Positions 987-55,276 of a stretch of DNA of 64,000 nt are shown piece after piece. Where the stretch lies: contig CAYTAR010000003.1 of NCBI GenBank assembly GCA_964436015.1, forward strand, positions 16,678 through 80,677, read 5' to 3'. The stretch's first letter is position 1; each line of letters starts with the position of its first letter. A program made the translations under genes and the position numbers. The notes under the pieces were generated by a model. That model did not search any database and was not told the origin of the DNA. It worked only from the letters and a program-made list of their open reading frames with translations. Source of the DNA: an uncultured Candidatus Saccharibacteria bacterium (GTDB lineage: Bacteria; Patescibacteriota; Minisyncoccia; Phycocordibacterales; GCA-2401445).

Positions 987-1727
987 ATGAAAAAAACACA
1001 CAAGATTGGGTTGGTGGTACTACTTGGTATTGTTGTACTCCTTGTGTGGTACGGTATGAAGCAATCAGTTTCTGATATTGATGAAGAGGTTGATTTAATC
1101 ATAGAGTCAGAAGAAACCGCTGAAACAGATTTGGTCCCACAGACAAACAATAATTCACCATTGCGAGAGGTTGAAATTGTAGAAGAATCTCCACAGATTA
1201 ATTATGCATACTTATTTGAAAAGGGAAGTAGCGAGGAAAGTAATATTGTGGGGCATTTTGGAGAAGGGGCGTTTGGGTGGTATGTACCAAGTTGGCTTGT
1301 AGCAAACTGGGTTGATGTAACTCCTGAAGGAGGTCTGGGTCTTATTTTTGCACCAAAAGTTCGTCACGATAGTGAGCAGTTCTCAAATATAGTTATTGAA
1401 GTTGGGACAAGTACCGAAGCGTTTAATGCAATGACGCTCTATGATATGAATATTGCTAAAAGTGCACCTTCAGACATTGTTATTACGGAAGTGCTTTTGA
1501 ATAAGCATGGAGCGAGTGATCTGCAGATAACCATGGAAACTAATACGTTGATATATCATATAGAAAAAAAAGTTTCTAATGATGTCCTGGATACATACTA
1601 TATGGACGGGAATGGTAAGACATTGATCGTTTCATTTCGTGCTCGTGCTGATATTTTCCCTCAATTTTCAACTCGTATTCGCGACCTTGTTGGAGGTATT
1701 GGCGCGCTGGTTCCGCCACAGGGGTAA
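987..1727 (+). CDS. hypothetical membrane-anchored protein
   Basis: 246 aa. N-terminal hydrophobic helix (IGLVVLLGIVVLLVW) followed by an acidic linker. Confidence 0.5.
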   Translation: MKKTHKIGLVVLLGIVVLLVWYGMKQSVSDIDEEVDLIIESEETAETDLVPQTNNNSPLREVEIVEESPQINYAYLFEKGSSEESNIVGHFGEGAFGWYVPSWLVANWVDVTPEGGLGLIFAPKVRHDSEQFSNIVIEVGTSTEAFNAMTLYDMNIAKSAPSDIVITEVLLNKHGASDLQITMETNTLIYHIEKKVSNDVLDTYYMDGNGKTLIVSFRARADIFPQFSTRIRDLVGGIGALVPPQG

Positions 1728-1740
1728 AAAGAATTCTCCA

Positions 1741-1771
1741 AATCCTGCCGAGGTCGGACCTCGGCAGAAAT
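1741..1771. repeat. 33-bp near-perfect palindromic repeat, copy 1 (aatcCTGCCGAGGTCgGACCTCGGCAGaaatt)
   Basis: Perfect 11-1-11 palindrome. A second copy at 5291..5321 differs only at the central base. Confidence 0.8.
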
Positions 1772-1797
1772 TTGAATAATGCAGATAGAAAATCTTG

Positions 1798-1824
1798 TTG
1801 ACAAAGTAATATATTTTGTATAGT
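1798..1824 (+). promoter_or_regulatory. sigma-70-like promoter for the YcaO-SagB gene
   Basis: TTGACA at 1798-1803 and an extended -10 TGtTATAGT ending at 1824. AAGGAT ribosome-binding site 7 nt before the ATG at 1875. Confidence 0.55.
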
Positions 1825-1874
1825 GTCAAGATAAATAAACTAGTTCTTAAACAATATAAGCGAAAGGATAAATC

Positions 1875-4055
1875 ATGAACTTTGGAAGTATACCTGTTGT
1901 ATGGGCTTCTGTTTTTATTTCGAGCAGAAAGACCACTTTTAGCACTTTCAGCAAAGAAGTGGTGGTTGAAGTCCCTCGGGCTGTTATTGCTGCTCTATTG
2001 GAGGCCTGCAATGGAAGTAGGATCCTGAGCGAAGTAATTGATATTTTGTCCCAGGATTGGGACCGGACATCAATCGAAGGGCTTATCGAGGAGTTGTTCA
2101 AAAAGCAAGTGATTGTTGATGGAAAAACACTCGAAGGTGAGTTCTGGAAAAATGTTACGAATCCGATGAGGTTTCCAACAAATATCAGCGATAAGAATGT
2201 GGCGCGTCTGGTATTCCATGCTACAGAAAGGCACCGAAAAGAAAAACCTGAGAAGGTTTACAGACCTTCAAAAAGTGATTTCTCTGAGATTGTTAGTCGT
2301 CGCAAATCCGTCCGTATTTTTTCTGGAGAGACCGTCGATTTTCAAATTGTCATTGATCTGCTTTGGAGTGCGTATGGGGAATGTTTGACAACTGACGGGC
2401 GACCTCATCGCTCTGTACCATCTGCTGGAGCACTTTATCCTCTAATCATTCATGTTTGCCTATTTGAAAAAACAGGCGATCTGGATCCGGGGGTATATCG
2501 AGTGCTTTACGATCAAGAAGGTTCTGTCGGCTTTAAGTATGTTTCAACTGATACATTGAGGTTTGCCAGGTCTTTCTTGAATCCTGTTAGTATCCAGAAA
2601 GGAATTCACGGAGTCATTGTCATTAGCGGATCATTCGCTGTGTCAAATCAAAAATACGGTAACCGAAGTATGCTGTACGTTCCCTTGGAGGCTGGGCACT
2701 CTGCTCAGAACGTTCTCCTAGAAGCTACCCGTCAAGGTGTTGCAACGCTAGAAATTGGAGGTTTTGTGGACGAGCTTGTTGCTCAGTCTATTGAACTTCC
2801 TGATGACTATCAACCGCTTACTCTCGTTGCTTTTGGTAAAGAGTCTGAACAAGTTGATTTGAAAAAACCTTCGACCTTGCAAGTTGATTGGGCTATCCCA
2901 TCGGCCAAAGGGTATGCTCCTGGTTTTGCTATTGCATCGGCTCGCTTGTCAGAAAAACGAAGTTGGTCGCACGGCAGAGATCCTTCTCCTGAGTTGGCTT
3001 TTAAAAAAGCGATTTCTGAAACCAAGGAATGGACTTCTTGTGGATGTATTCCGGAGCTTACTTGTGCTACTTATCGTGAGTTAGATAATGTTATTGATCC
3101 TCGAGAAATCATTCGATTTCACAAGAGTCAGTACAGGATCAAGGGGTTTCCGTTTGCGCAGTTTAATAAGAATATAAGGTACAACTGGACAAAAGGATTT
3201 GACATGAGTGGAAATGAATTTTATATTCTTGCCGATCATGTTTATTTCCCATATTTTCCAGAAACGCCTTACTATTGTTTTTCAAACTCATCGGGATGCG
3301 CTGCGCACCCTGATAAGCAGATGGCAATTAAGACTGGAACTCTTGAATTAATCGAACGGGATGCATTTATCAACTCGTATTTCTGCAGACTTGATATGCC
3401 AGTAGTTTCAGAAGATACTCTACCGGATGATATTCAAAAGCGTATCTATGAGCTAAGGGAAGTCGGGTTTGAAGTGTGGGTTGTTGATCATTCGCTCGAT
3501 TTGGCACCTGTGGTATTTGTCATGGCTCAAAGTGAAAAGCATACTTTTACCACCTGTGCATCTTGCTCCAGTTTTGATGTTGAGCATGCTGTCAGTCATT
3601 CGCTCATGGAAGTAGAGGCATCCATTCTTCATCGTCTGCAACATGGCGTGTCCGATAAGATCCGTCCAGATAAGGTCATTTGGCCTAACGATCACGGTCG
3701 TCTTTACGGCCAAAAACAATACTTCCGCCGTGCGGATTTCTTGGTTGCAAGCCAAAGGTCTGTACCGTTCCAAGAGATAGGGGGCAACGCTCCTAAAACT
3801 TGGGACAATCTCCTTGGTTGTTTCGAGGGTAAGGGTTGGAAACATTTAGTTGTTCCTCTCGAGCTCTCTGATGACTATGGAGGAAACGGTGATCTCAGTA
3901 TTGTCAGAGTGATCGTTCCTGGCACCATACAGATGACCTTTGGCAATCGTCAGGAACCTGCTGGAATGAAGCGTCTGTATGAAATCGCCGAGAGGTTCGG
4001 ACGAGGTAAATTGACTTACAGTCAGCTAACTAAGTTCCCGCATCCTTTTGAGTGA
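1875..4055 (+). CDS. TOMM-type RiPP maturase: fused N-terminal RRE-like domain + SagB-type FMN dehydrogenase + azoline-forming YcaO cyclodehydratase
   Basis: 726 aa. Residues about 130-330 carry nitroreductase/SagB motifs (RKSVRIF, SAGALYP, LEAGHSAQN). Residues about 350-726 carry both YcaO signature blocks (GRDPSPELAFKKAISETKEW and SSGCAAHPDKQMAIKTGTLELIERDAF). The C terminus ends in the proline-rich FPHPFE motif typical of azoline-forming YcaOs. The first about 120 aa look like a PqqD-like leader-recognition (RRE) winged helix. Confidence 0.85.
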   Translation: MNFGSIPVVWASVFISSRKTTFSTFSKEVVVEVPRAVIAALLEACNGSRILSEVIDILSQDWDRTSIEGLIEELFKKQVIVDGKTLEGEFWKNVTNPMRFPTNISDKNVARLVFHATERHRKEKPEKVYRPSKSDFSEIVSRRKSVRIFSGETVDFQIVIDLLWSAYGECLTTDGRPHRSVPSAGALYPLIIHVCLFEKTGDLDPGVYRVLYDQEGSVGFKYVSTDTLRFARSFLNPVSIQKGIHGVIVISGSFAVSNQKYGNRSMLYVPLEAGHSAQNVLLEATRQGVATLEIGGFVDELVAQSIELPDDYQPLTLVAFGKESEQVDLKKPSTLQVDWAIPSAKGYAPGFAIASARLSEKRSWSHGRDPSPELAFKKAISETKEWTSCGCIPELTCATYRELDNVIDPREIIRFHKSQYRIKGFPFAQFNKNIRYNWTKGFDMSGNEFYILADHVYFPYFPETPYYCFSNSSGCAAHPDKQMAIKTGTLELIERDAFINSYFCRLDMPVVSEDTLPDDIQKRIYELREVGFEVWVVDHSLDLAPVVFVMAQSEKHTFTTCASCSSFDVEHAVSHSLMEVEASILHRLQHGVSDKIRPDKVIWPNDHGRLYGQKQYFRRADFLVASQRSVPFQEIGGNAPKTWDNLLGCFEGKGWKHLVVPLELSDDYGGNGDLSIVRVIVPGTIQMTFGNRQEPAGMKRLYEIAERFGRGKLTYSQLTKFPHPFE

Positions 4056-4060
4056 TACCA

Positions 4061-4099
4061 AGACGGAAGGCTAAAAACTTTCCGTCTTTTTTTTATTTT
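4061..4099 (+). terminator. Rho-independent terminator
   Basis: AGACGGAA / TTCCGTCT stem, 11-nt loop, then a T run of 12. Confidence 0.7.
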
Positions 4100-4113
4100 G
4101 CTAGTATAAAGTA

Positions 4114-4926
4114 ATGAATAAAGGTTTGTCACAAATTGAATTTTATTTTCCAAGCGGAGAATTTAATGACAAAAATGAAATAGGGGACTCAATCGTCTCT
4201 CTAATGAAAGAAAATGGAAGTATTGATTATTCTGGCTATGCAGATGTCGATTTGTTAAAGCAGGGTTTATTGGACCACATTGGAAACGGAAGTGTTGAGC
4301 AATATAAAGAAATCTCTGAGGAGCAGAGGTTGGAAATAGAAAAAACTATTTCAGAAACCATTGATAAGTGTAATGAAAAATTATCTGTTCCAACTAAGAA
4401 TTTTATTTTTGTTCATCCCTACCTTACCACCGAAGATGACAAGGTTTTTGACGGCGTAATGGCTGTGGCAGTTTACAGCTGTGTTTTTCATTTGTTTATA
4501 AATTTAGATCAATACTCAAAAAAATCTATCGAAAATACCGTTGCTCACGAACTGAATCATACAATCTACTACTACTATCATTATGATGATTTCAATAACT
4601 ATACACTTTTAGATGAAATATTATTAGAAGGTTTGGCAGAAAATTTTAGAGAACAGTATTTTGATGCTGAAGTTAGCAAGTGGGCTGGTGCATTAAATAA
4701 AGATGAGGCATTTAAAGTATTAAAGGAATCAGAAGGTATTCTTGAATCCAGAGACAAGAAAGTTATTGGTGAATTTCTGTTTGGAAACGATAGGTATAAA
4801 AGATGGACAGGCTACTCAGTTGGGTATTGGTTGGTTAAAGAATTTTTAAAAAATAATATCAATGTACCTTGGACTGAAATAATGAAGATGGATTCACAAA
4901 GATTTTTAGTAGCTGTTAACAAATAA
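4114..4926 (+). CDS. putative Zn-dependent metallopeptidase (HExxH...E), candidate leader peptidase
   Basis: 270 aa. AHELNH motif with a downstream EGLAE (gluzincin-like). Lies between the YcaO gene and the precursor peptide. Confidence 0.45.
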   Translation: MNKGLSQIEFYFPSGEFNDKNEIGDSIVSLMKENGSIDYSGYADVDLLKQGLLDHIGNGSVEQYKEISEEQRLEIEKTISETIDKCNEKLSVPTKNFIFVHPYLTTEDDKVFDGVMAVAVYSCVFHLFINLDQYSKKSIENTVAHELNHTIYYYYHYDDFNNYTLLDEILLEGLAENFREQYFDAEVSKWAGALNKDEAFKVLKESEGILESRDKKVIGEFLFGNDRYKRWTGYSVGYWLVKEFLKNNINVPWTEIMKMDSQRFLVAVNK

Positions 4927-4929
4927 AAA

Positions 4930-4960
4930 GACGTAGTGACAACTGACTGGTCACTACGTC
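4930..4960. terminator. bidirectional hairpin terminator between convergent genes
   Basis: GACGTAGTGAC...GTCACTACGTC perfect 11-bp inverted repeat, A-rich on the left. Confidence 0.6.
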
Positions 4961-4974
4961 CTATAAAGGAAGCA

Positions 4975-5100
4975 TCATTTGCTCCCGCACTTGCCGTTGC
5001 CGCCGCCACCAGAACTGCACTGTTCCTGACACACAACTGTGCCAGGAAGAGGCTTGTCTTTGGCAGTGACTTTCCAAGAGAACTTTTTAGGATTCTTCAT
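4975..5100 (-). CDS. candidate TOMM precursor peptide (41 aa): MKNPKKFSWKVTAKDKPLPGTVV-CQEQCSSGGGGNGKCGSK
   Basis: Minus-strand ATG at 5098-5100 preceded by AAGGAGA 7 nt upstream. Strong promoter upstream. The Cys/Ser/Gly-rich C-terminal core is typical of heterocyclised RiPP substrates. Stop at 4975-4977. Confidence 0.55.
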   Translation of the reverse strand: MKNPKKFSWKVTAKDKPLPGTVVCQEQCSSGGGGNGKCGSK

Positions 5101-5169
5101 GGTTGTCTCCTTTCCAATAGTTAAGGTTTCACCGTCAACTGTGTAAAGTAAATCTTTACACCTAATCAA

Positions 5170-5198
5170 AATATAAGCATTACAGGTCAGTATGTCAA
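5170..5198 (-). promoter_or_regulatory. sigma-70-like promoter for the precursor peptide
   Basis: Minus-strand TTGACA-17 nt-TATATT, about 70 nt upstream of the precursor ATG. Confidence 0.6.
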
Positions 5199-5290
5199 CA
5201 TTACGAAATGATTCAATATCTTGGAATTTACACAATAATTTCATAAGGTATGCTAATTGCATATACTAAAATAAAAGATTGGTTGTAATA

Positions 5291-5321
5291 ATCCTGCCGA
5301 GGTCCGACCTCGGCAGAAATT
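5291..5321. repeat. 33-bp palindromic repeat, copy 2 (aatcCTGCCGAGGTCcGACCTCGGCAGaaatt)
   Basis: Identical to 1741..1771 except for the central base. Lies upstream (minus-strand sense) of the precursor promoter. Confidence 0.8.
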
Positions 5322-5424
5322 AGCGTTGGTATTTCTAAGTAAATGAGAGATTGACTAATGCTTAATTTCATTATATTGTTTTCGTAGTTAAAATGCAGTA
5401 AATCAGATACGAAAGGAAAAATGA

Positions 5425-5697
5425 ATGAATGACACGACGTGGTACATTCACCCCGGTGGGTGCGTAACGACCAATCGCCTTCTCGCGGAACGTCTTCCGC
5501 AAGAAGATGCCTGTCCACAGAAGCTCTGTGCTGATGGTGTTCTGCGGGACCTTTGGAAGTGCGACCATGCGGTGGTTACTGAATTCACTCGCGCTCGGAA
5601 ACAACTCTCCCTTAATTTCAAAGTGTTTGTGCAGGAGGGGCAGGGGCCGGTGCGCCTGTGGAAGTTTGAAGAGAAGAAGCAAGCAACGAAGGTGTGA
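5425..5697 (+). CDS. small GC-rich Cys-containing hypothetical protein
   Basis: 90 aa. AAGGA ribosome-binding site, an upstream TTGACT-17 nt-TATTGT promoter (5351-5379) and a strong downstream terminator. GC content is clearly above its surroundings and several frames are open across it. Confidence 0.4.
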   Translation: MNDTTWYIHPGGCVTTNRLLAERLPQEDACPQKLCADGVLRDLWKCDHAVVTEFTRARKQLSLNFKVFVQEGQGPVRLWKFEEKKQATKV

Positions 5698-5714
5698 CAT
5701 TCGTTGTTTGAAAA

Positions 5715-5750
5715 CACAACACGCGGACCGTAGGTCCGCGTGTTTTTCTT
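5715..5750 (+). terminator. Rho-independent terminator
   Basis: ACGCGGACC..GGTCCGCGT stem followed by TTTTTCTT. Confidence 0.7.
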
Positions 5751-5821
5751 GTATGCAGTAGGTGAAGTATAATAAAAATATAGAAATAACAATGCGCGAG
5801 CTAGTTTAGAAGACATATTCA

Positions 5822-6796
5822 ATGAAAAAGAAGCATACACAGAAGAATATTGTTATTTACCAAGCAAAGAACGGAGCGATTGAACTTCGGGGTGATTTTG
5901 GGCATGAGACAGTATGGGCGACCCAGGCTCAAATAGCGAATGCTTTTGAGACAAACCGTTCTGTAGTCACAAAGCATATTAGAAACATTTTGAATGATAA
6001 GGAACTTGATGCGAAATCAGTATGTGCAAAATTTGCACATACTGCCGAGGACGGTAAAACCTACCAAGTTCAATTCTATAATCTCGATGTTATTTTGGCT
6101 GTGGGTTATAGAACTAATTCAAAACGTGCCATTGAATTTCGTAAATGGGCAACAAAGACGCTTCGGGAATATATTACAAAGGGCTACGTAATCAATCGTA
6201 AGCAGATTCAGAAGAATCATAAAGAATTTCTGAAAACCGTTGAATCAATTCAACAGTTGTTGCCGGAACATATCGCCCTTGATCCGAAATCAATACTTGA
6301 ACTTATCAAGGAATTTTCAAGTACATGGGTATCACTTGATGCATACGATAAGGAGTCTTTGAAGCCCGTTGGCGTTACGAAGAAATCAGTTGCAATTAGC
6401 GGTATTGAATTACGTGAGGTAATTGCTAACTTGAGAGCGGAATTGATGAGAAAGGGGGAGGCAGGAGAAATTTTTGCACAAGAAAGAAATGCGGGGAGTA
6501 TAGAGGGAATTATTGGAAACGTAATGCAGTCATTTGGGGATAAACCAGTATACGAAACAGTTGAGGAGAAAGCAGCACACCTTCTTTATTTTATGGTTAA
6601 AAATCATCCGTTTATTGATGGTAATAAGCGCTCCGGGGCGTTTGCTTTTGTCTGGTTCCTACGGAAACAGCGTGTAAAGGGAAGAAGTAACATTAACCCA
6701 AGCGCACTCACGGCACTGACACTTCTTATTGCTGAGAGTGATTCTAAAAAGATGGGGCAGATGGTTGCGTTAGTGACACAGATGTTGAAGAAGTAA
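5822..6796 (+). CDS. Fic/Doc family protein with RhuM-like N-terminal domain
   Basis: 324 aa. The N terminus (IVIYQAKNGAIELRGDFGHETVWATQAQIANAFETNRSVVTKHIRNI) resembles the RhuM virulence-protein family. The C terminus carries HPFIDGNKRSGA, matching the Fic/Doc HxFx(D/N)GNKR motif. Confidence 0.7.
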   Translation: MKKKHTQKNIVIYQAKNGAIELRGDFGHETVWATQAQIANAFETNRSVVTKHIRNILNDKELDAKSVCAKFAHTAEDGKTYQVQFYNLDVILAVGYRTNSKRAIEFRKWATKTLREYITKGYVINRKQIQKNHKEFLKTVESIQQLLPEHIALDPKSILELIKEFSSTWVSLDAYDKESLKPVGVTKKSVAISGIELREVIANLRAELMRKGEAGEIFAQERNAGSIEGIIGNVMQSFGDKPVYETVEEKAAHLLYFMVKNHPFIDGNKRSGAFAFVWFLRKQRVKGRSNINPSALTALTLLIAESDSKKMGQMVALVTQMLKK

Positions 6797-7084: not shown

Positions 7085-7171
7085 GGGGGTAAGAATTCAA
7101 GTGAAAGGAATCAAGAGACTTTTCTTTTGAAGTGGTTTTTGCATACATAGTATGTGTGTACATATGCACAC

Positions 7172-7201
7172 TTGACCTCCATACCCCCTGGGGGGTATAC
7201 T
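7172..7201 (+). promoter_or_regulatory. cso operon promoter with a CsoR-type operator in the spacer
   Basis: TTGACC-18 nt-TATACT. The perfect GC-rich palindrome ATACCCCCTGGGGGGTAT (7181-7198) fills the spacer and resembles known CsoR operators. Confidence 0.6.
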
Positions 7202-7207
7202 TGGTTT

Positions 7208-7483
7208 ATGACATACATAGATGAAAAAAATAAAGCGCGGGTAATACGTCGTCTCAAGTTACTTGAGGGACAAGTGCGAGGTCTTCAGCGAATGGTAGAG
7301 AAAGATACCTACTGTATAGATGTGATCACTCAAACATCGGCAGTTAAGCAGGGGTTATCTAATGTTGAAGATTTGCTTCTGGAGAATCACCTCGATCACT
7401 GCGTTCATCATCAGATGAAAACGGGGCAGACCGCAAAAGCAAAAAAAGAGATTATTACTGTGTATAAGTTAAAAAGAAAATAA
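7208..7483 (+). CDS. csoR: CsoR/RcnR-family copper-sensing transcriptional repressor
   Basis: 91 aa from the ATG at 7208. Shows the DUF156 fold signature and a Cys...His-Cys metal-ligand pattern (YCID...LDHCVHH). Immediately upstream of copA. Nearly leaderless relative to the predicted promoter. Confidence 0.75.
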
Positions 7484-7484
7484 T

Positions 7485-9779
7485 ATGCACACAGAAAATT
7501 ATCGGGTTAAGGGAATGCACTGTGCCTCATGTTCTTCGGTAATTGAGAAAACGCTTAAGAAAGTTGATGGGGTGCATTCAGTACAGGTGAACTATGGTAC
7601 TGAGAAAGCAAAAGTTTCTTTTGACTCATCAAAAGTAAACCCCCATGACTTGTCAAAGCACACTGAACCCCTTGGGTACACGCTTGAAGCAGAAGCGAGT
7701 GCTCAGGAGATGAACATGACAGCGGATGAACATGCTGCGCACACCGGCGTGAATCAGACAAAAAAAGAGAAGTTGGCAGAAGTGGCTGATATGCGTACCA
7801 AAGCATTTACCGCACTCCCCATAGCGCTGTTCGCAGCGTTTGTGATGGGATGGGATATGTTGGCAGAGTATAGTATTGCACCAATGATGGGTGAGACGCT
7901 TAAGAATTTTTTCCACCACGTGCTTCCAATACTCGCAACATATGTTTTATTTGTGGTGGGTAAGCCATACTTGTGGGGAGTGTATCGATTTTTCCGTTTT
8001 GGTAAAGCAAATATGGATACGCTGATAGGTATCGGTACCACCGCTGCTTTTCTGTACAGTTTTGCGGTAAGCGCGTTTGAAGAAGTACTCCGGCCTTTTA
8101 TTAATGTGGACTACCAATATTACGACGTAACCATTGTAGTGATTGCATTCATTGCTCTGGGTAAATATTTAGAGGCGCGCTCAAAGGTCAAAACAGGGGA
8201 CGCTATTGAAAAATTGCTCACACTGCAAGCAAAGTCAGCTTTGGTTATTCGTGAAGGAAAGGAAGTTGAAATTTCTGTTAATGAAGTGGTGCGCGGGGAT
8301 TTGATTATCGTAAAGCCAGGTGGAAAGATTCCTATAGATGGAGTGATTACCGAAGGAGAGTCTTTTGTTGATGAGTCTATGGTTACGGGCGAGCCAATGC
8401 CAGTGCAGAAAAAGGTTGGCGATCCTGTTGTTTCTGGAACACTCAATACACATGGTTCATTTATCTGTCGAGCGGAAAAGGTTGGTTCAGAAACACTCCT
8501 TGCGCACATTATACATATGGTTGAGGAGGCCCAGGGGAGTAAAGCGCCGATACAGGCGCTCGCCGATAAAATTTCGGCAGTATTCGTTCCTGCTGTGTTG
8601 GTAATTGCGTTTCTTTCCCTTGGTACCTGGCTCATTGTTGGTTCACAGTATATAGGTTTTTCTCAAGCACTTTCGTTCGGTCTCGTATCATTTGTAGGAG
8701 TGCTCGTGATTGCGTGCCCGTGCGCACTTGGACTTGCGACACCAACTGCAATTATTGTCGGTGTAGGTAAAGGGGCACGGGAAGGGATACTTATTAAAGA
8801 TGCAGAAACACTTGAAAAACTTCATAAGGTGAATACGGTTGTAGTAGATAAGACGGGGACGATAACCAAGGGTAAGCCAACGCTCGTTGATATTGAGAAT
8901 ATATCAAGTGTGACTGATACCGATCTTGTGAGTATTCTCGCCACACTTGAACGGAAGTCAGAACATCCAATAGCACACGCAATCGTAGCGTACGCACAGG
9001 AGAAGAATGTTTTATTATCAGAAATCTCTGGGTTTGAAGGGCTGCAAGGTAAAGGGGTCACAGGTACTATTAAGGGAATAGAATATTTTGCAGGTAACGT
9101 AACTTTGGCGACCGATCTCGGGCTTTCGTTTGATACGCAGAAGCTACACGAATATACTTCTCAAGGGAAAACACCAATTTTACTCATGACAAGAGAGCGT
9201 GTTCTTGGATTATTTTCAGTGTCAGATGAAATAAAAGCCGAATCAAAACAAGCGGTCGCTGATCTACATAAGCACGGTATTAAAGTGGTAATGCTCACCG
9301 GGGATGACGAAAAGGCTGCGCAGTATATTGCAAAACTTGTTGGTATTGATGAAGTGATTGCGCATGTGTTACCGCAGGATAAACGTGCAAAGATTATAGA
9401 GCTTCAAACACAAGGTCGCGTTGTAGCTATGGCGGGGGACGGGGTAAACGATGCACCTGCTCTTGCACAGGCGGATGTGGGAATTGCGATGGGGACCGGA
9501 ACAGATGTGGCGATTGAATCTGCAGGGATTACTCTTTTGGGAGGCGATATCTCAAAACTGGTGAAGGCAATTAAACTCTCAAAGATAACCATGCGAGGGA
9601 TTAAACAAAATTTGTTTTGGGCATTCATATACAATGTTGTTGGTATTCCACTTGCAGCAGGCGTATTCTACCCACTGTTTGGATGGTTACTGAATCCAGT
9701 GTTTGCAGGTTTTGCAATGGCAATGTCTTCGGTATCGGTGGTATCAAACTCACTTCGTATAAAGGCTAAAAAATTATAA
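7485..9779 (+). CDS. copA: copper-translocating P1B-type ATPase
   Basis: 764 aa. N-terminal HMA domain (GMHCASC), CPC in a TM helix, [19 protein letters not shown]. Confidence 0.95.
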
Positions 9780-54908: not shown

Positions 54909-54979
54909 CGGGCTGTAGTACAGTGGTAGTATTTGCCCATGGGGTGGGTAAGACCCGAGTTCAATTCTCGGCAGCCCGA
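54909..54979 (+). tRNA. tRNA-Pro (anticodon GGG by hand fold)
   Basis: Cloverleaf folded by hand. Acceptor CGGGCTG/CAGCCCG has the C1:G72 pair and A73 diagnostic of bacterial tRNA-Pro. Anticodon stem TGCCC/GGGTA with loop AT-GGG-GT. T-arm CCGAG-TTCAATT-CTCGG. CCA is not encoded. Confidence 0.7.
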
Positions 54980-55002
54980 CATGGTATCCTATACCAGTTT
55001 GG
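54963..55002 (+). repeat. direct repeat, copy 1 (tRNA-Pro 3' end plus 20 nt flank)
   Basis: The 40-bp sequence aattctcggcagcccgacatggtatcctataccagtttgg recurs exactly at 55277..55316. Its first 21 bp also recur at 55137..55157. Confidence 0.85.
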
Positions 55003-55136
55003 CCATACATGCACTTATGCATGTATGGCGAGAATTGAAAGGCGGAGCGATGTTTTTGTTTGACTGCTTTTGAGTCAAGGCAAAAACCGCGAGCCGGGGT
55101 CGCGCAATTTTTCCGTCAGGAAAAATATGTGTGACC

Positions 55137-55157
55137 AATTCTCGGCAGCCCGACATG
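55137..55157 (+). repeat. direct repeat, copy 2 (21 bp of the tRNA 3' end)
   Basis: Exact 21/21 match to 54963..54983. Confidence 0.85.
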
Positions 55158-55276
55158 AAATGAATTATATTCATTTCGTAGTTGCGAGAATGAAGGAGGG
55201 GGTCAGGGAACCTTCGGTTCCCCGTGCAGGAAGGCAGTGAGTCTACGAGCGTTGGAAAACCGTGGGTTTCCAAGGA

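What the first reader, a model, noticed from the sequence alone, without database searches (positions are those of the whole stretch)
4975..5100. Unannotatable-by-size candidate precursor peptide with a Cys/Ser/Gly-rich core, strong promoter and Shine-Dalgarno site
A minus-strand 41-codon ORF encodes MKNPKKFSWKVTAKDKPLPGTVV/CQEQCSSGGGGNGKCGSK. It has an AAGGAGA site 7 nt upstream of the ATG and a TTGACA-17 nt-TATATT promoter. It is convergent with the YcaO gene and shares a bidirectional terminator. The Lys-rich leader followed by a core dense in Cys, Ser and Gly is the expected substrate for an azoline-forming YcaO plus SagB. The track's longer 95-aa ORF is the same frame extended upstream.
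Basis: partly seen in the sequence, partly recalled or inferred. Interest (0 to 1): 0.8.

Follow-up and report, generated by a model that had tools for sequence, protein, structure and literature searches.

The report
Unannotated azole-peptide precursor gene, CPR bacterium
A real, conserved 41-codon gene encodes the likely substrate peptide of a compact three-gene cassette (one fused recognition-oxidase-cyclodehydratase enzyme, a zinc protease, the peptide) that probably makes a small thiazole-containing peptide in an uncultured, small-genome (Patescibacteria) bacterium.

Summary
The 41-codon ORF (minus strand, 5100..4975) exists as described, and it is a real gene. Orthologues evolve under strong purifying selection: pN/pS is 0.04-0.13, and variable sites by codon position number 3/3/19. 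The promoter, Shine-Dalgarno site, a 5' hairpin and the terminator are all conserved.

Two details in the finding are wrong. The convergent neighbour is a DUF2268 HExxH protease gene (4114-4926), not the YcaO gene. "SagB plus YcaO" is one 726-aa polypeptide (1875-4055), and its first ~95 residues fold as a RiPP recognition element.

A peptide with the leader motif P-K-K-F-S-W-K-V-T and a Cys/Gly/Ser core lies next to this fused enzyme in 12 of 12 enzyme-first loci at >=45% enzyme identity. It also occurs in 4 more distant loci, including Bdellovibrionales and Proteobacteria. These loci differ in genomic context and gene order.

In most members the core (QxQCSSGGGGNGxCG) is conserved rather than hypervariable, but some loci pair the same leader with an unrelated Cys core.

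Best reading: this is the precursor of a linear azole-containing peptide made by a minimal cassette that lacks the usual E1-like or ThiF-like partner protein. It is a new variant of a known kind. The chemistry and the function of the product are untested.

The parts
4975..5100 (-). Precursor peptide gene, 41 codons plus stop. Lys-rich leader with the motif PKKFSWKVT (residues 4-12). Core QEQCSSGGGGNGKCG (residues 25-39) with family-conserved Cys28 and Cys38; Cys24 is not conserved.
   Evidence: sequence. (homologues). (pN/pS 0.04-0.13; variable sites 3/3/19 by codon position).
5106..5112 (-). Shine-Dalgarno site AAGGAGA, 5 nt before the ATG.
   Evidence: A GAAAGGAG-type site is conserved before the same ATG in orthologues.
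5170..5198 (-). Sigma-70-type promoter: TTGACA, 17-nt spacer, TATATT.
   Evidence: 11 of 12 matches. The -35 TTGACA is conserved in all five close loci.
5141..5161 (-). 8-bp stem-loop at the predicted 5' end of the peptide mRNA.
   Evidence: dG -8.5, z -2.5. (97.5% of cells paired and 3 of 8 pairs with compensatory changes, in 5 sequences).
4921..4962 (-). Intrinsic terminator of the peptide gene: 13-bp stem, 9-nt loop, then UUUUUAUUU. The U-tract overlaps the DUF2268 stop codon.
   Evidence: dG -18.6, z -5.15. A hairpin is kept at the same place in orthologues with a different sequence.
4114..4926 (+). DUF2268 protein, 270 aa. It has HELNH (HExxH) and a downstream invariant EGLAExFRE motif. 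Inferred to be the leader peptidase.
   Evidence: PF10026, 99.7 bits. (sequence). (HExxH and E172..E180 invariant in 11 complete orthologues).
4060..4098 (+). Hairpin plus T-tract between the enzyme gene and the protease gene. It is followed by TGnTAGTAT 6 nt before the protease ATG, with no Shine-Dalgarno site.
   Evidence: (the hairpin is conserved in 9 loci with compensatory stem changes).
1875..4055 (+). Single 726-aa enzyme: RRE (residues ~5-95), linker helix (106-121), SagB-type nitroreductase (~130-335) and YcaO (~345-726, ending FPHPFE).
1798..1826 (+). Candidate promoter of the enzyme gene: TTGACA, 17-nt spacer, TAGTGT. Relatives have TTGACT-N17-TAATGT.
   Evidence: Its upstream region is paralogous to the region upstream of the peptide promoter.
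1741..1772 (.). Left copy of the 32-nt palindromic repeat AATCCTGCCGAGGTCGGACCTCGGCAGAAATT that brackets the cassette.
   Evidence: two copies in 64 kb, none expected by chance.
5290..5321 (.). Right copy of the 32-nt palindromic repeat, 31 of 32 bases identical to the left copy.

Best explanation
The ORF is the precursor (A) gene of a self-contained cassette of about 3.5 kb in a Patescibacteria genome.

Shown:
- It is a conserved protein-coding gene with its own conserved promoter, Shine-Dalgarno site, 5' stem-loop and terminator.
- It is genetically tied to one fused RRE-SagB-YcaO enzyme and, usually, to a DUF2268 HExxH protease.

Inferred mechanism:
1. The enzyme's N-terminal RRE binds the conserved leader motif P-[KR]-K-F-S-W-[KR]-[VI]-T.
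2. The YcaO domain uses ATP to cyclodehydrate the conserved Cys28 and Cys38 to thiazolines. Cys24 and Ser29/Ser30 may also be modified.
3. The fused FMN dehydrogenase domain oxidises the thiazolines to thiazoles.
4. The cytoplasmic DUF2268 zinc protease removes the leader somewhere in the variable stretch before Gln25. This releases a Gly-rich azole peptide of about 17 residues, reminiscent of microcin B17.

The product's target and its export route are unknown.
For: Coding:
- pN/pS is 0.04-0.13, and 19 of 25 variable sites fall at codon position 3.
- The ATG with its Shine-Dalgarno site is conserved, whereas the upstream extension of the reading frame is not.

Linkage:
- The DNA block 1841-5114 is 76-84% identical to four loci, with no synteny outside it.
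- The peptide is found next to the fusion gene in L004-L010, L013, L014, L084, L086 and L087. These loci were fetched through the enzyme only and share 45-86% enzyme identity.
- It is also found in L011, L012, L016 and L023 (30-40% identity), where it lies on the same strand directly after the enzyme gene.

Leader and core:
- The leader motif is conserved while the core can be replaced, for example L086 GNSEGACINCDVPAPCGD.
- At least two Cys are kept after the leader motif in all 19 members tabulated; the L023 core also has four.

Enzyme:
- YcaO Pfam E = 1e-39 and Nitroreductase E = 1.7e-13.
- Invariant R143-x-S145-x-R147 and K260-Y261, the LELxERD and MEVEAS acidic motifs, and C-terminal F-P-H-P.
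- The PxP motif marks azoline-forming YcaOs (PMC7136475).
- PDB profile and fold matches are to the azoline heterocyclases LynD, TruD, MusD and McbD and to the azoline oxidases BmdC, McbC and ThcOx.
- At sequence level there are weak PqqD and PaaA_N Pfam hits in 11-12 of 31 members.

Protease:
- PF10026, with invariant HExxH.
Against: - No transcript, peptide or modification has been observed; everything rests on comparative genomics.
- No E1-like or Ocin-ThiF-like partner is present. Most characterised azoline-forming YcaOs need one (PMC4603692; PMC7136475).
- The enzyme scores below NCBIfam's curated cut-offs for TIGR03604 (138.6 vs 219.25) and TIGR03605 (57.7 vs 78.4), so it belongs to a divergent clade whose chemistry is extrapolated.
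- The highly conserved core is atypical for antibiotic LAPs.
- The cassette has no exporter or immunity gene.
- L087 lacks a DUF2268 gene and in L006 it is frameshifted, so the protease is not obligatory.
- More distant fusion homologues (L015, L017-L020) show no such peptide.
Confidence: 0.82

Rival explanations
1. The peptide is the enzyme's substrate, but the YcaO domain performs a different ATP-dependent backbone reaction (thioamidation, amidine formation or peptide-bond cleavage). In that case the nitroreductase domain would be a scaffold or would carry out another oxidation.
For: - YcaO enzymes are chemically diverse.
- Among the closest PDB matches are MusD, deposited under 'YcaO-mediated ATP-dependent peptidase activity' (7u58), and the archaeal thioamidating YcaOs.
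- The enzyme falls below the TOMM-specific NCBIfam cut-offs.
- No E1-like or ThiF-like partner is present.
Against: - No TfuA gene lies in the cassette.
- The C-terminal PxP motif typical of azoline formers is invariant.
- The fused SagB-type domain keeps its FMN-binding motif and its Lys-Tyr motif.
- The residues conserved across all core variants are Cys.
Confidence: 0.1
2. The small protein is real but is not modified by the neighbouring enzyme. It would act unmodified, for example as a Cys-based metal-binding peptide, a small toxin, or a regulator of the cassette.
For: - It has three Cys in a Gly-rich tail.
- The core is unusually conserved.
- In this window csoR-copA lies about 2 kb away.
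Against: - The csoR-copA neighbourhood is not conserved in any other locus.
- The only constant neighbour is the RRE-SagB-YcaO enzyme.
- The N-terminal half, not the Cys tail, is what stays constant when cores diverge. That is the pattern expected of a leader peptide read by an RRE.
Confidence: 0.06
3. The ORF is a chance reading frame, and the conserved element is a non-coding RNA or a regulatory region.
For: - The ORF is very short.
- The exact peptide is absent from the 15-billion-protein collection.
- It was not called as a gene in L084-L087.
- The flanking RNA hairpins are conserved.
Against: - The substitution pattern is strongly codon-periodic.
- Amino-acid conservation persists down to 45% enzyme identity, where the DNA no longer aligns.
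- There is no Rfam match.
- Some annotation pipelines did call homologues as genes.
Confidence: 0.02

Closest known systems
[quoted passage not shown]
   Same: - A short precursor with an N-terminal leader and a Gly/Ser/Cys core.
- A YcaO cyclodehydratase with the C-terminal PxP motif.
- A SagB/McbC-type FMN dehydrogenase.
- Leader removal by a zinc metalloprotease.
   Different: - There is no E1-like (McbB) partner; an RRE fused to the N-terminus of the dehydrogenase-YcaO polypeptide takes its place.
- B and D are one chain.
- The protease is DUF2268, not TldD/E (the latter from my own knowledge).
- There are no export or immunity genes.
- The precursor has no detectable sequence relation to McbA or to any Pfam or NCBIfam precursor family.
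Cyanobactin heterocyclases LynD/TruD and the muscoride enzyme MusD
   Same: These are the best whole-chain structural matches (E = 6e-17 for LynD). They have an N-terminal RRE followed by a YcaO domain in one polypeptide. LynD residues 36-90 align weakly with the N-terminal domain here.
   Different: In LynD and TruD an E1-like domain lies between the RRE and the YcaO domain. Here a nitroreductase/oxidase domain occupies that position. There are no PatA/PatG-type proteases and no sign of macrocyclisation.
Azoline oxidases with N-terminal RRE-like domains (ThcOx/CyaGox, BmdC)
   Different: Those oxidases are stand-alone proteins that act after a separate heterocyclase or NRPS module. Here the oxidase is fused to the YcaO domain.
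LAP gene clusters reported by genome mining in CPR bacteria (Sharrar et al. 2020, PMC7298704)
   Same: The phylogenetic setting is the same (Parcubacteria and other CPR lineages) and so is the gene content: YcaO, nitroreductase and peptidase. [quoted passage not shown]
   Different: The cluster drawn there has separate YcaO, nitroreductase and peptidase genes and an 84-aa putative precursor. The passages retrieved describe neither a fused enzyme nor the PKKFSWKVT/QEQCSSGGGGNGKCG peptide family. No product has been characterised.
Partner-less YcaO systems (bottromycin, trifolitoxin)
   Same: The YcaO acts without an E1-like C protein (PMC4603692).
   Different: Bottromycin uses a follower peptide and stand-alone YcaOs with no RRE. 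Here an RRE is fused in cis and the precursor has a classical N-terminal leader.

Membership tests
LAP/TOMM biosynthetic gene cluster | A YcaO-domain cyclodehydratase (D protein). | tested here: met
   PF02624, E = 1e-39, covering 4-324 of 325 model positions. The LELxERD and MEVEAS motifs are invariant. Structural matches are to LynD, TruD, MusD and McbD.
LAP/TOMM biosynthetic gene cluster | The C-terminal PxP motif of azoline-forming YcaOs. | tested here: met
   The protein ends ...KFPHPFE. F721, H723 and P724 are invariant and P722 is conserved in >=90% of 22 homologues. The motif definition comes from PMC7136475.
LAP/TOMM biosynthetic gene cluster | A partner protein for leader recognition: E1-like (C) or Ocin-ThiF-like (F), separate or fused to D. 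| tested here: not met
   No such domain appears in the 726-aa protein or in the conserved cassette. An N-terminal RRE fused to the B-D polypeptide is present instead.
LAP/TOMM biosynthetic gene cluster | An FMN-dependent SagB/McbC-type dehydrogenase (B protein). | tested here: met
   PF00881, E = 1.7e-13. R143-x-S145-x-R147 and K260-Y261 are invariant; their roles are assigned from my own knowledge of nitroreductases and of the TOMM dehydrogenase Lys-Tyr motif. Profile hits are to BmdC, McbC and ThcOx.
LAP/TOMM biosynthetic gene cluster | A short precursor with an N-terminal leader and a Cys/Ser/Thr-containing core, encoded nearby. | tested here: met
   This ORF. Twenty family members lie next to the enzyme, with a conserved leader motif and 2-4 Cys in the core.
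LAP/TOMM biosynthetic gene cluster | Azoline or azole rings actually present in the product. | not testable with these tools
   This needs mass spectrometry or NMR of the expressed product.
NCBIfam TIGR03604 (TOMM_cyclo_SagD) and TIGR03605 (SagB dehydrogenase) | A score at or above the curated cut-off. | tested here: not met
   138.6 bits against a cut-off of 219.25, and 57.7 bits against 78.4. These are the best-matching models, but the protein lies outside the curated families.
RiPP recognition element (PqqD-like winged helix) | An N-terminal three-stranded sheet followed by three helices, with fold similarity to known RREs. | tested here: met
RiPP recognition element (PqqD-like winged helix) | Binding of the leader peptide. 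| not testable with these tools
   This needs binding assays or a co-complex structure. Chimeric inputs for structure prediction were not possible.
Pfam DUF2268 (PF10026, predicted Zn-dependent protease) | A score above the gathering threshold and an HExxH motif. | tested here: met
   99.7 bits against a threshold of 23.6. HELNH is present, and H145, E146, H149, E172 and E180 are invariant in 12 aligned sequences. Protease activity on the precursor was not tested.
Named TOMM/RiPP precursor families in Pfam or NCBIfam | Any profile match of the peptide. | tested here: not met
   There were zero families at E <= 0.01 for the 41-aa and 95-aa versions. No paper contains the strings QEQCSS, KKFSWK or QEQCSC.

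The most novel reading that the evidence does not exclude
The cassette is a mobile, self-contained 'one-enzyme' azole-peptide system. A single RRE-oxidase-YcaO polypeptide needs no E1-like or ThiF-like partner. Both convergent transcription units are driven by inverted copies of one promoter-bearing repeat. The product has a near-invariant core (QxQCSSGGGGNGxCG) and serves a conserved, non-bacteriocin role in episymbiotic CPR bacteria, for example host interaction, signalling or metal binding, rather than acting as a variable antibiotic.
Probability: 0.15. Interest if true: 0.8.

Novelty: new variant of a known kind. Interest (0 to 1): 0.58.

Why it matters
If the inference holds, three points follow.

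- **A minimal azole-peptide system.** The precursor, one 726-aa enzyme and one protease would form the smallest complete azole-peptide pathway I could find in the literature searched. It would show that an RRE fused in cis to a dehydrogenase-YcaO chain can replace the E1-like or ThiF-like partner that most azoline-forming YcaOs require. At about 3.4 kb it is easy to synthesise and express.
- **A concrete substrate for CPR clusters.** LAP clusters in CPR bacteria have so far been noted only as antiSMASH calls (PMC7298704, PMC12153355). This work supplies a specific substrate family for them. These organisms have very small genomes and almost no known secondary metabolism.
- **A possible conserved target.** The unusually conserved core hints at a conserved molecular target.

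In practical terms, gene callers missed the precursor in all four enzyme-first loci whose gene calls I checked. Genome mining of such clusters will therefore need a search for the leader motif.

Tried and rejected
1. Rfam search of 4000-6500 at E <= 1 found no RNA family. A non-coding explanation was rejected, also because of the codon-periodic substitution pattern.
2. The 95-aa version of the ORF was rejected. Its extension contains the promoter and is not conserved in orthologues.
3. The 246-aa ORF at 987-1727 was considered as a missing partner protein. It has no Pfam or NCBIfam family and no homologue in any related locus. It has an N-terminal membrane anchor and is not part of the cassette.
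4. A link to the nearby csoR-copA genes (a copper peptide) was rejected because that neighbourhood is not conserved in any other locus.
5. A sequence-only search of the N-terminal domain against the PDB gave only E ~2 to LynD. The RRE assignment rests on the fold.
A sequence search of DUF2268 against the PDB found nothing. Its fold is therefore unverified.
7. An exact look-up of the window's own enzyme on a public contig failed, and the exact peptide is not in the protein collection.
8. A search for family peptides next to the most distant fusion homologues (L015, L017-L021, L024) found none, and L022 is ambiguous.
9. Literature searches found no description of this peptide family or of a YcaO-DUF2268 pairing.

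Full report
**1. Observation**

- On the minus strand, ATG 5100 to stop 4977-4975 encodes MKNPKKFSWKVTAKDKPLPGTVVCQEQCSSGGGGNGKCGSK.
- AAGGAGA lies at 5112-5106, 5 nt before the ATG.
- TTGACA-17-TATATT (5198-5170) matches 11 of 12 consensus positions. It is the best promoter-like site in 4000-6000.
- A 13-bp hairpin (4928-4962, dG -18.6 kcal/mol, z -5.15) followed by UUUUUAUUU ends the gene.
- The 95-aa ORF in the list (5262..4975) is the same frame extended upstream.

Two details of the finding are wrong:

- The convergent gene (4114-4926) is a DUF2268 predicted zinc protease, not the YcaO gene.
- The shared hairpin has a U-tract only on the peptide's strand.

**2. It is a real gene**

- A search of 5.8 billion proteins found six homologous small proteins.
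- A profile search of 1.84 billion cluster representatives found 22 hits at E <= 0.001. About 20 of them are small proteins of the same family.
- Among five orthologous loci that still align at DNA level, variable sites fall 3/3/19 on codon positions 1/2/3. Nei-Gojobori pN/pS is 0.04-0.13.
- The ATG and its GGAG site are conserved, whereas the upstream in-frame extension is not.
- The -35 hexamer and the terminator hairpin are conserved in position.
- So is an 8-bp stem-loop at the predicted mRNA 5' end (5141-5161).
- That 5' stem-loop keeps pairing through compensatory changes: 97.5% of cells are paired and 3 of 8 pairs have double changes, though only 5 sequences are available.
- No Rfam family matches the region.

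**3. Surroundings**

The gene at 1875-4055 encodes one 726-aa protein with a Nitroreductase/SagB domain (E = 1.7e-13) and a YcaO domain (E = 1e-39).

- Its best NCBIfam models are TOMM_cyclo_SagD and SagB dehydrogenase, but both score below their curated cut-offs.
- A 22-sequence alignment shows invariant R143-x-S145-x-R147, K260-Y261, LELxERD, MEVEAS and a C-terminal F-P-H-P.
- The PxP terminus is described as typical of azoline-forming YcaOs (PMC7136475).
- Profile hits in the PDB are MusD, TruD and LynD for the YcaO part, and 3eo7, BmdC, McbC and ThcOx for the oxidase part.

Residues 1-132, modelled with a 31-sequence alignment (pLDDT 82.9), form strands followed by three helices.

- Weak Pfam hits to PqqD and PaaA-like_N in 11-12 of the 31 members agree with this.

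The full-length model (pLDDT 79) matches LynD and TruD best. No E1-like or Ocin-ThiF-like domain or gene is present.

The DUF2268 protein has HELNH and an invariant EGLAExFRE motif. It has no signal peptide by inspection.

**4. Comparative test of the interpretation**

- Contigs found through peptide homologues (L001-L003) all carry the same three genes, but their flanking genes differ.
- Loci fetched through the enzyme alone were then searched for the peptide. All twelve with 45-86% enzyme identity contain it: L004-L010, L013, L014, L084, L086 and L087.
- Gene callers had not called it in L084-L087.
- Four loci with 30-40% identity also have a small ORF with the same leader motif and a Cys-containing tail. 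Here it lies directly downstream of the enzyme gene on the same strand. They are L011 (Bdellovibrionales), L012 (Pseudomonadota), L016 (Betaproteobacteria) and L023 (Saccharibacteria).
- Still more distant homologues (L015, L017-L020) show none.
- The window shares a 3.3-kb block (1841-5114) at 76-84% identity with L010, L001, L002 and L004. Nothing outside that block is shared.
- The association therefore survives changes of genome, neighbourhood and gene order.

**5. Anatomy of the peptide family**

- The conserved leader motif is P-[KR]-[KSN]-F-[SAN]-W-[KR]-[VI]-[TS], set in a Lys/Arg-rich N-terminus.
- A variable linker follows.
- Most members then carry the core Q-x-Q-C-S-[SC]-G-x-G-G-N-G-x-C-G.
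- Cys24 of the window peptide is not conserved; Cys28 and Cys38 are.
- Some members keep the leader but have unrelated cores: L086 GNSEGACINCDVPAPCGD, L016 GCSCCGGK and L012 ECGACG.
- Two representatives (P0152, P0158) keep the core with a different N-terminus.
- This is the leader/core modularity expected of a RiPP, but with an unusually conserved main core.

**6. Mechanism**

Shown: the gene, its expression signals, its linkage to the enzyme, and the enzyme's domain composition and motifs.

Inferred:
1. The RRE binds the FSWKV leader segment.
2. The YcaO domain makes thiazolines at Cys28 and Cys38, and possibly also modifies Cys24 or Ser29/Ser30.
3. The fused SagB domain oxidises them to thiazoles.
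4. DUF2268 removes the leader.

The Gly-rich Cys/Ser core resembles microcin B17 in composition (from my own knowledge), but no homology was detected. The target, export route and immunity mechanism are unknown.

**7. What is known**

- The minimal LAP definition is a precursor (A), a YcaO (D) with a C or F partner, and a dehydrogenase (B) (PMC7136475).
- The TOMM catalogue describes C-D fusions and F proteins. In the passages retrieved it does not describe B-D fusions (PMC4603692).
- LAP clusters with YcaO, nitroreductase and peptidase genes have been reported in 93 CPR genomes by genome mining, with one 84-aa candidate precursor (PMC7298704). YcaO clusters in CPR are also noted in PMC12153355.
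- I found no paper pairing YcaO with DUF2268 and none containing the peptide motifs.
- I therefore file this as a new variant of a known kind. It works like a LAP/TOMM system, but it fails the 'partner protein' criterion and the curated NCBIfam cut-offs.

**8. Origin of the window**

The best named relatives of the window's TypA (58110-59903) are all Patescibacteria/Parcubacteria MAGs at 71-77% identity. The closest cassettes are in Paceibacterota and Saccharibacteria MAGs.

**9. Extra features**

- A 32-nt palindromic repeat brackets the cassette (1741-1772 and 5290-5321). There are two copies in 64 kb and none is expected by chance.
- In L001, L002, L004 and L010, the ~65-150 nt upstream of the enzyme promoter and upstream of the peptide promoter are inverted copies of each other, ending at the shared -35. 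In L001, 93 of 97 nt are identical.
- These repeats differ between loci. That suggests co-regulation of the two units, concerted evolution of the repeats, and possibly mobility of the cassette.
- A conserved hairpin plus U-tract separates the enzyme and protease genes.
- That hairpin is followed by a TGnTAnnAT element 6 nt before a protease ATG that has no Shine-Dalgarno site.

**10. Verdict**

- Confidence in 'RiPP precursor of the fused enzyme' is 0.82.
- Interest is 0.58: solid and useful, moderately surprising because of the partner-less single-chain synthetase, the conserved core and the CPR host. It is not categorically new.

Noticed in passing
window 1741-1772 and 5290-5321: A 32-nt repeat, AATCCTGCCGAGGTC[G/C]GACCTCGGCAGAAATT, is 31 of 32 bases identical between its two copies and is itself a palindrome. 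It brackets the three-gene cassette. These are the only two copies in the 64-kb window, and none is expected by chance.
   Followed up: partly
L001, L002, L004, L010 (upstream of the enzyme gene and of the peptide gene); window 1700-1874 vs 5101-5360: The ~65-150 nt upstream of the two convergent promoters are inverted copies of each other and end at the shared -35 TTGAC (L001: 93 of 97 nt identical). The repeats differ between loci, which suggests concerted evolution or transposon-like ends. In the window only decayed similarity remains.
   Followed up: partly
window 4060-4113: A hairpin plus T-tract lies between the enzyme and protease genes and is conserved in 9 loci with compensatory stem changes. 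It is followed by TGnTAGTAT 6 nt before the DUF2268 ATG, with no Shine-Dalgarno site. The protease may have its own extended -10 promoter and a leaderless mRNA.
   Followed up: partly
window 5141-5161 (-): A stem-loop sits at the predicted 5' end of the peptide mRNA. It is kept in five loci with 3 of 8 pairs changed on both sides, and may be an mRNA-stabilising 5' hairpin.
   Followed up: yes
window 54909-55320: tRNA-Pro(GGG) is followed by two further copies of its 3' end. A ~40-nt direct repeat (54964-55002 and 55280-55318) flanks about 316 bp, which looks like att-type scars of integration at the tRNA.
   Followed up: partly
window 55041-55127; L001 17027-17110: An 87-nt element is 84% identical between two otherwise unrelated regions, in both cases just downstream of a tRNA gene. 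By eye it forms three consecutive hairpins. There is no Rfam match, even at E <= 5.
   Followed up: partly
L086 ~7180-7317 (-); P0152, P0158: There is modular swapping within the peptide family. L086 keeps the PKKFSWKI leader with an unrelated core (GNSEGACINCDVPAPCGD). P0152 and P0158 keep the QEQCSSGGGGNG core with a different N-terminal region.
   Followed up: no
L084-L087; window: The precursor gene was not called by the NCBI or JGI gene callers in any of the four enzyme-first loci whose gene calls were checked. In L087 a 93-aa gene is called at 6187-6468 on the + strand, overlapping the minus-strand peptide ORF. The window's exact peptide is absent from the 15-billion-protein collection.
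   Followed up: yes
L002 7662-11533: Next to the cassette lies a second RiPP-like cluster with an MvdD-type ATP-grasp ligase, a TPR protein, an ABC transporter and an M16 peptidase. It is probably one of the CPR graspetide loci described in PMC8939145.
   Followed up: no
L003 641-1300; L006 8235-9046; L087: The protease content varies. L003 has a second, divergent DUF2268 paralogue on the other side of the peptide gene. In L006 the DUF2268 gene is split over two reading frames. L087 has no DUF2268 gene and instead has a giant RHS/Ntox44 toxin gene downstream.
   Followed up: no
window 987-1727 (+): A 246-aa ORF with an N-terminal membrane anchor has no Pfam or NCBIfam family and no counterpart in any related locus.
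   Followed up: partly
window 5822-6796 and 7154-9779: Just beyond the cassette lie a RhuM-Fic/Doc fusion protein gene, preceded by a strong bidirectional terminator (5718-5744), and a csoR-copA copper-efflux pair. Neither is conserved next to the cassette in other loci.
   Followed up: partly
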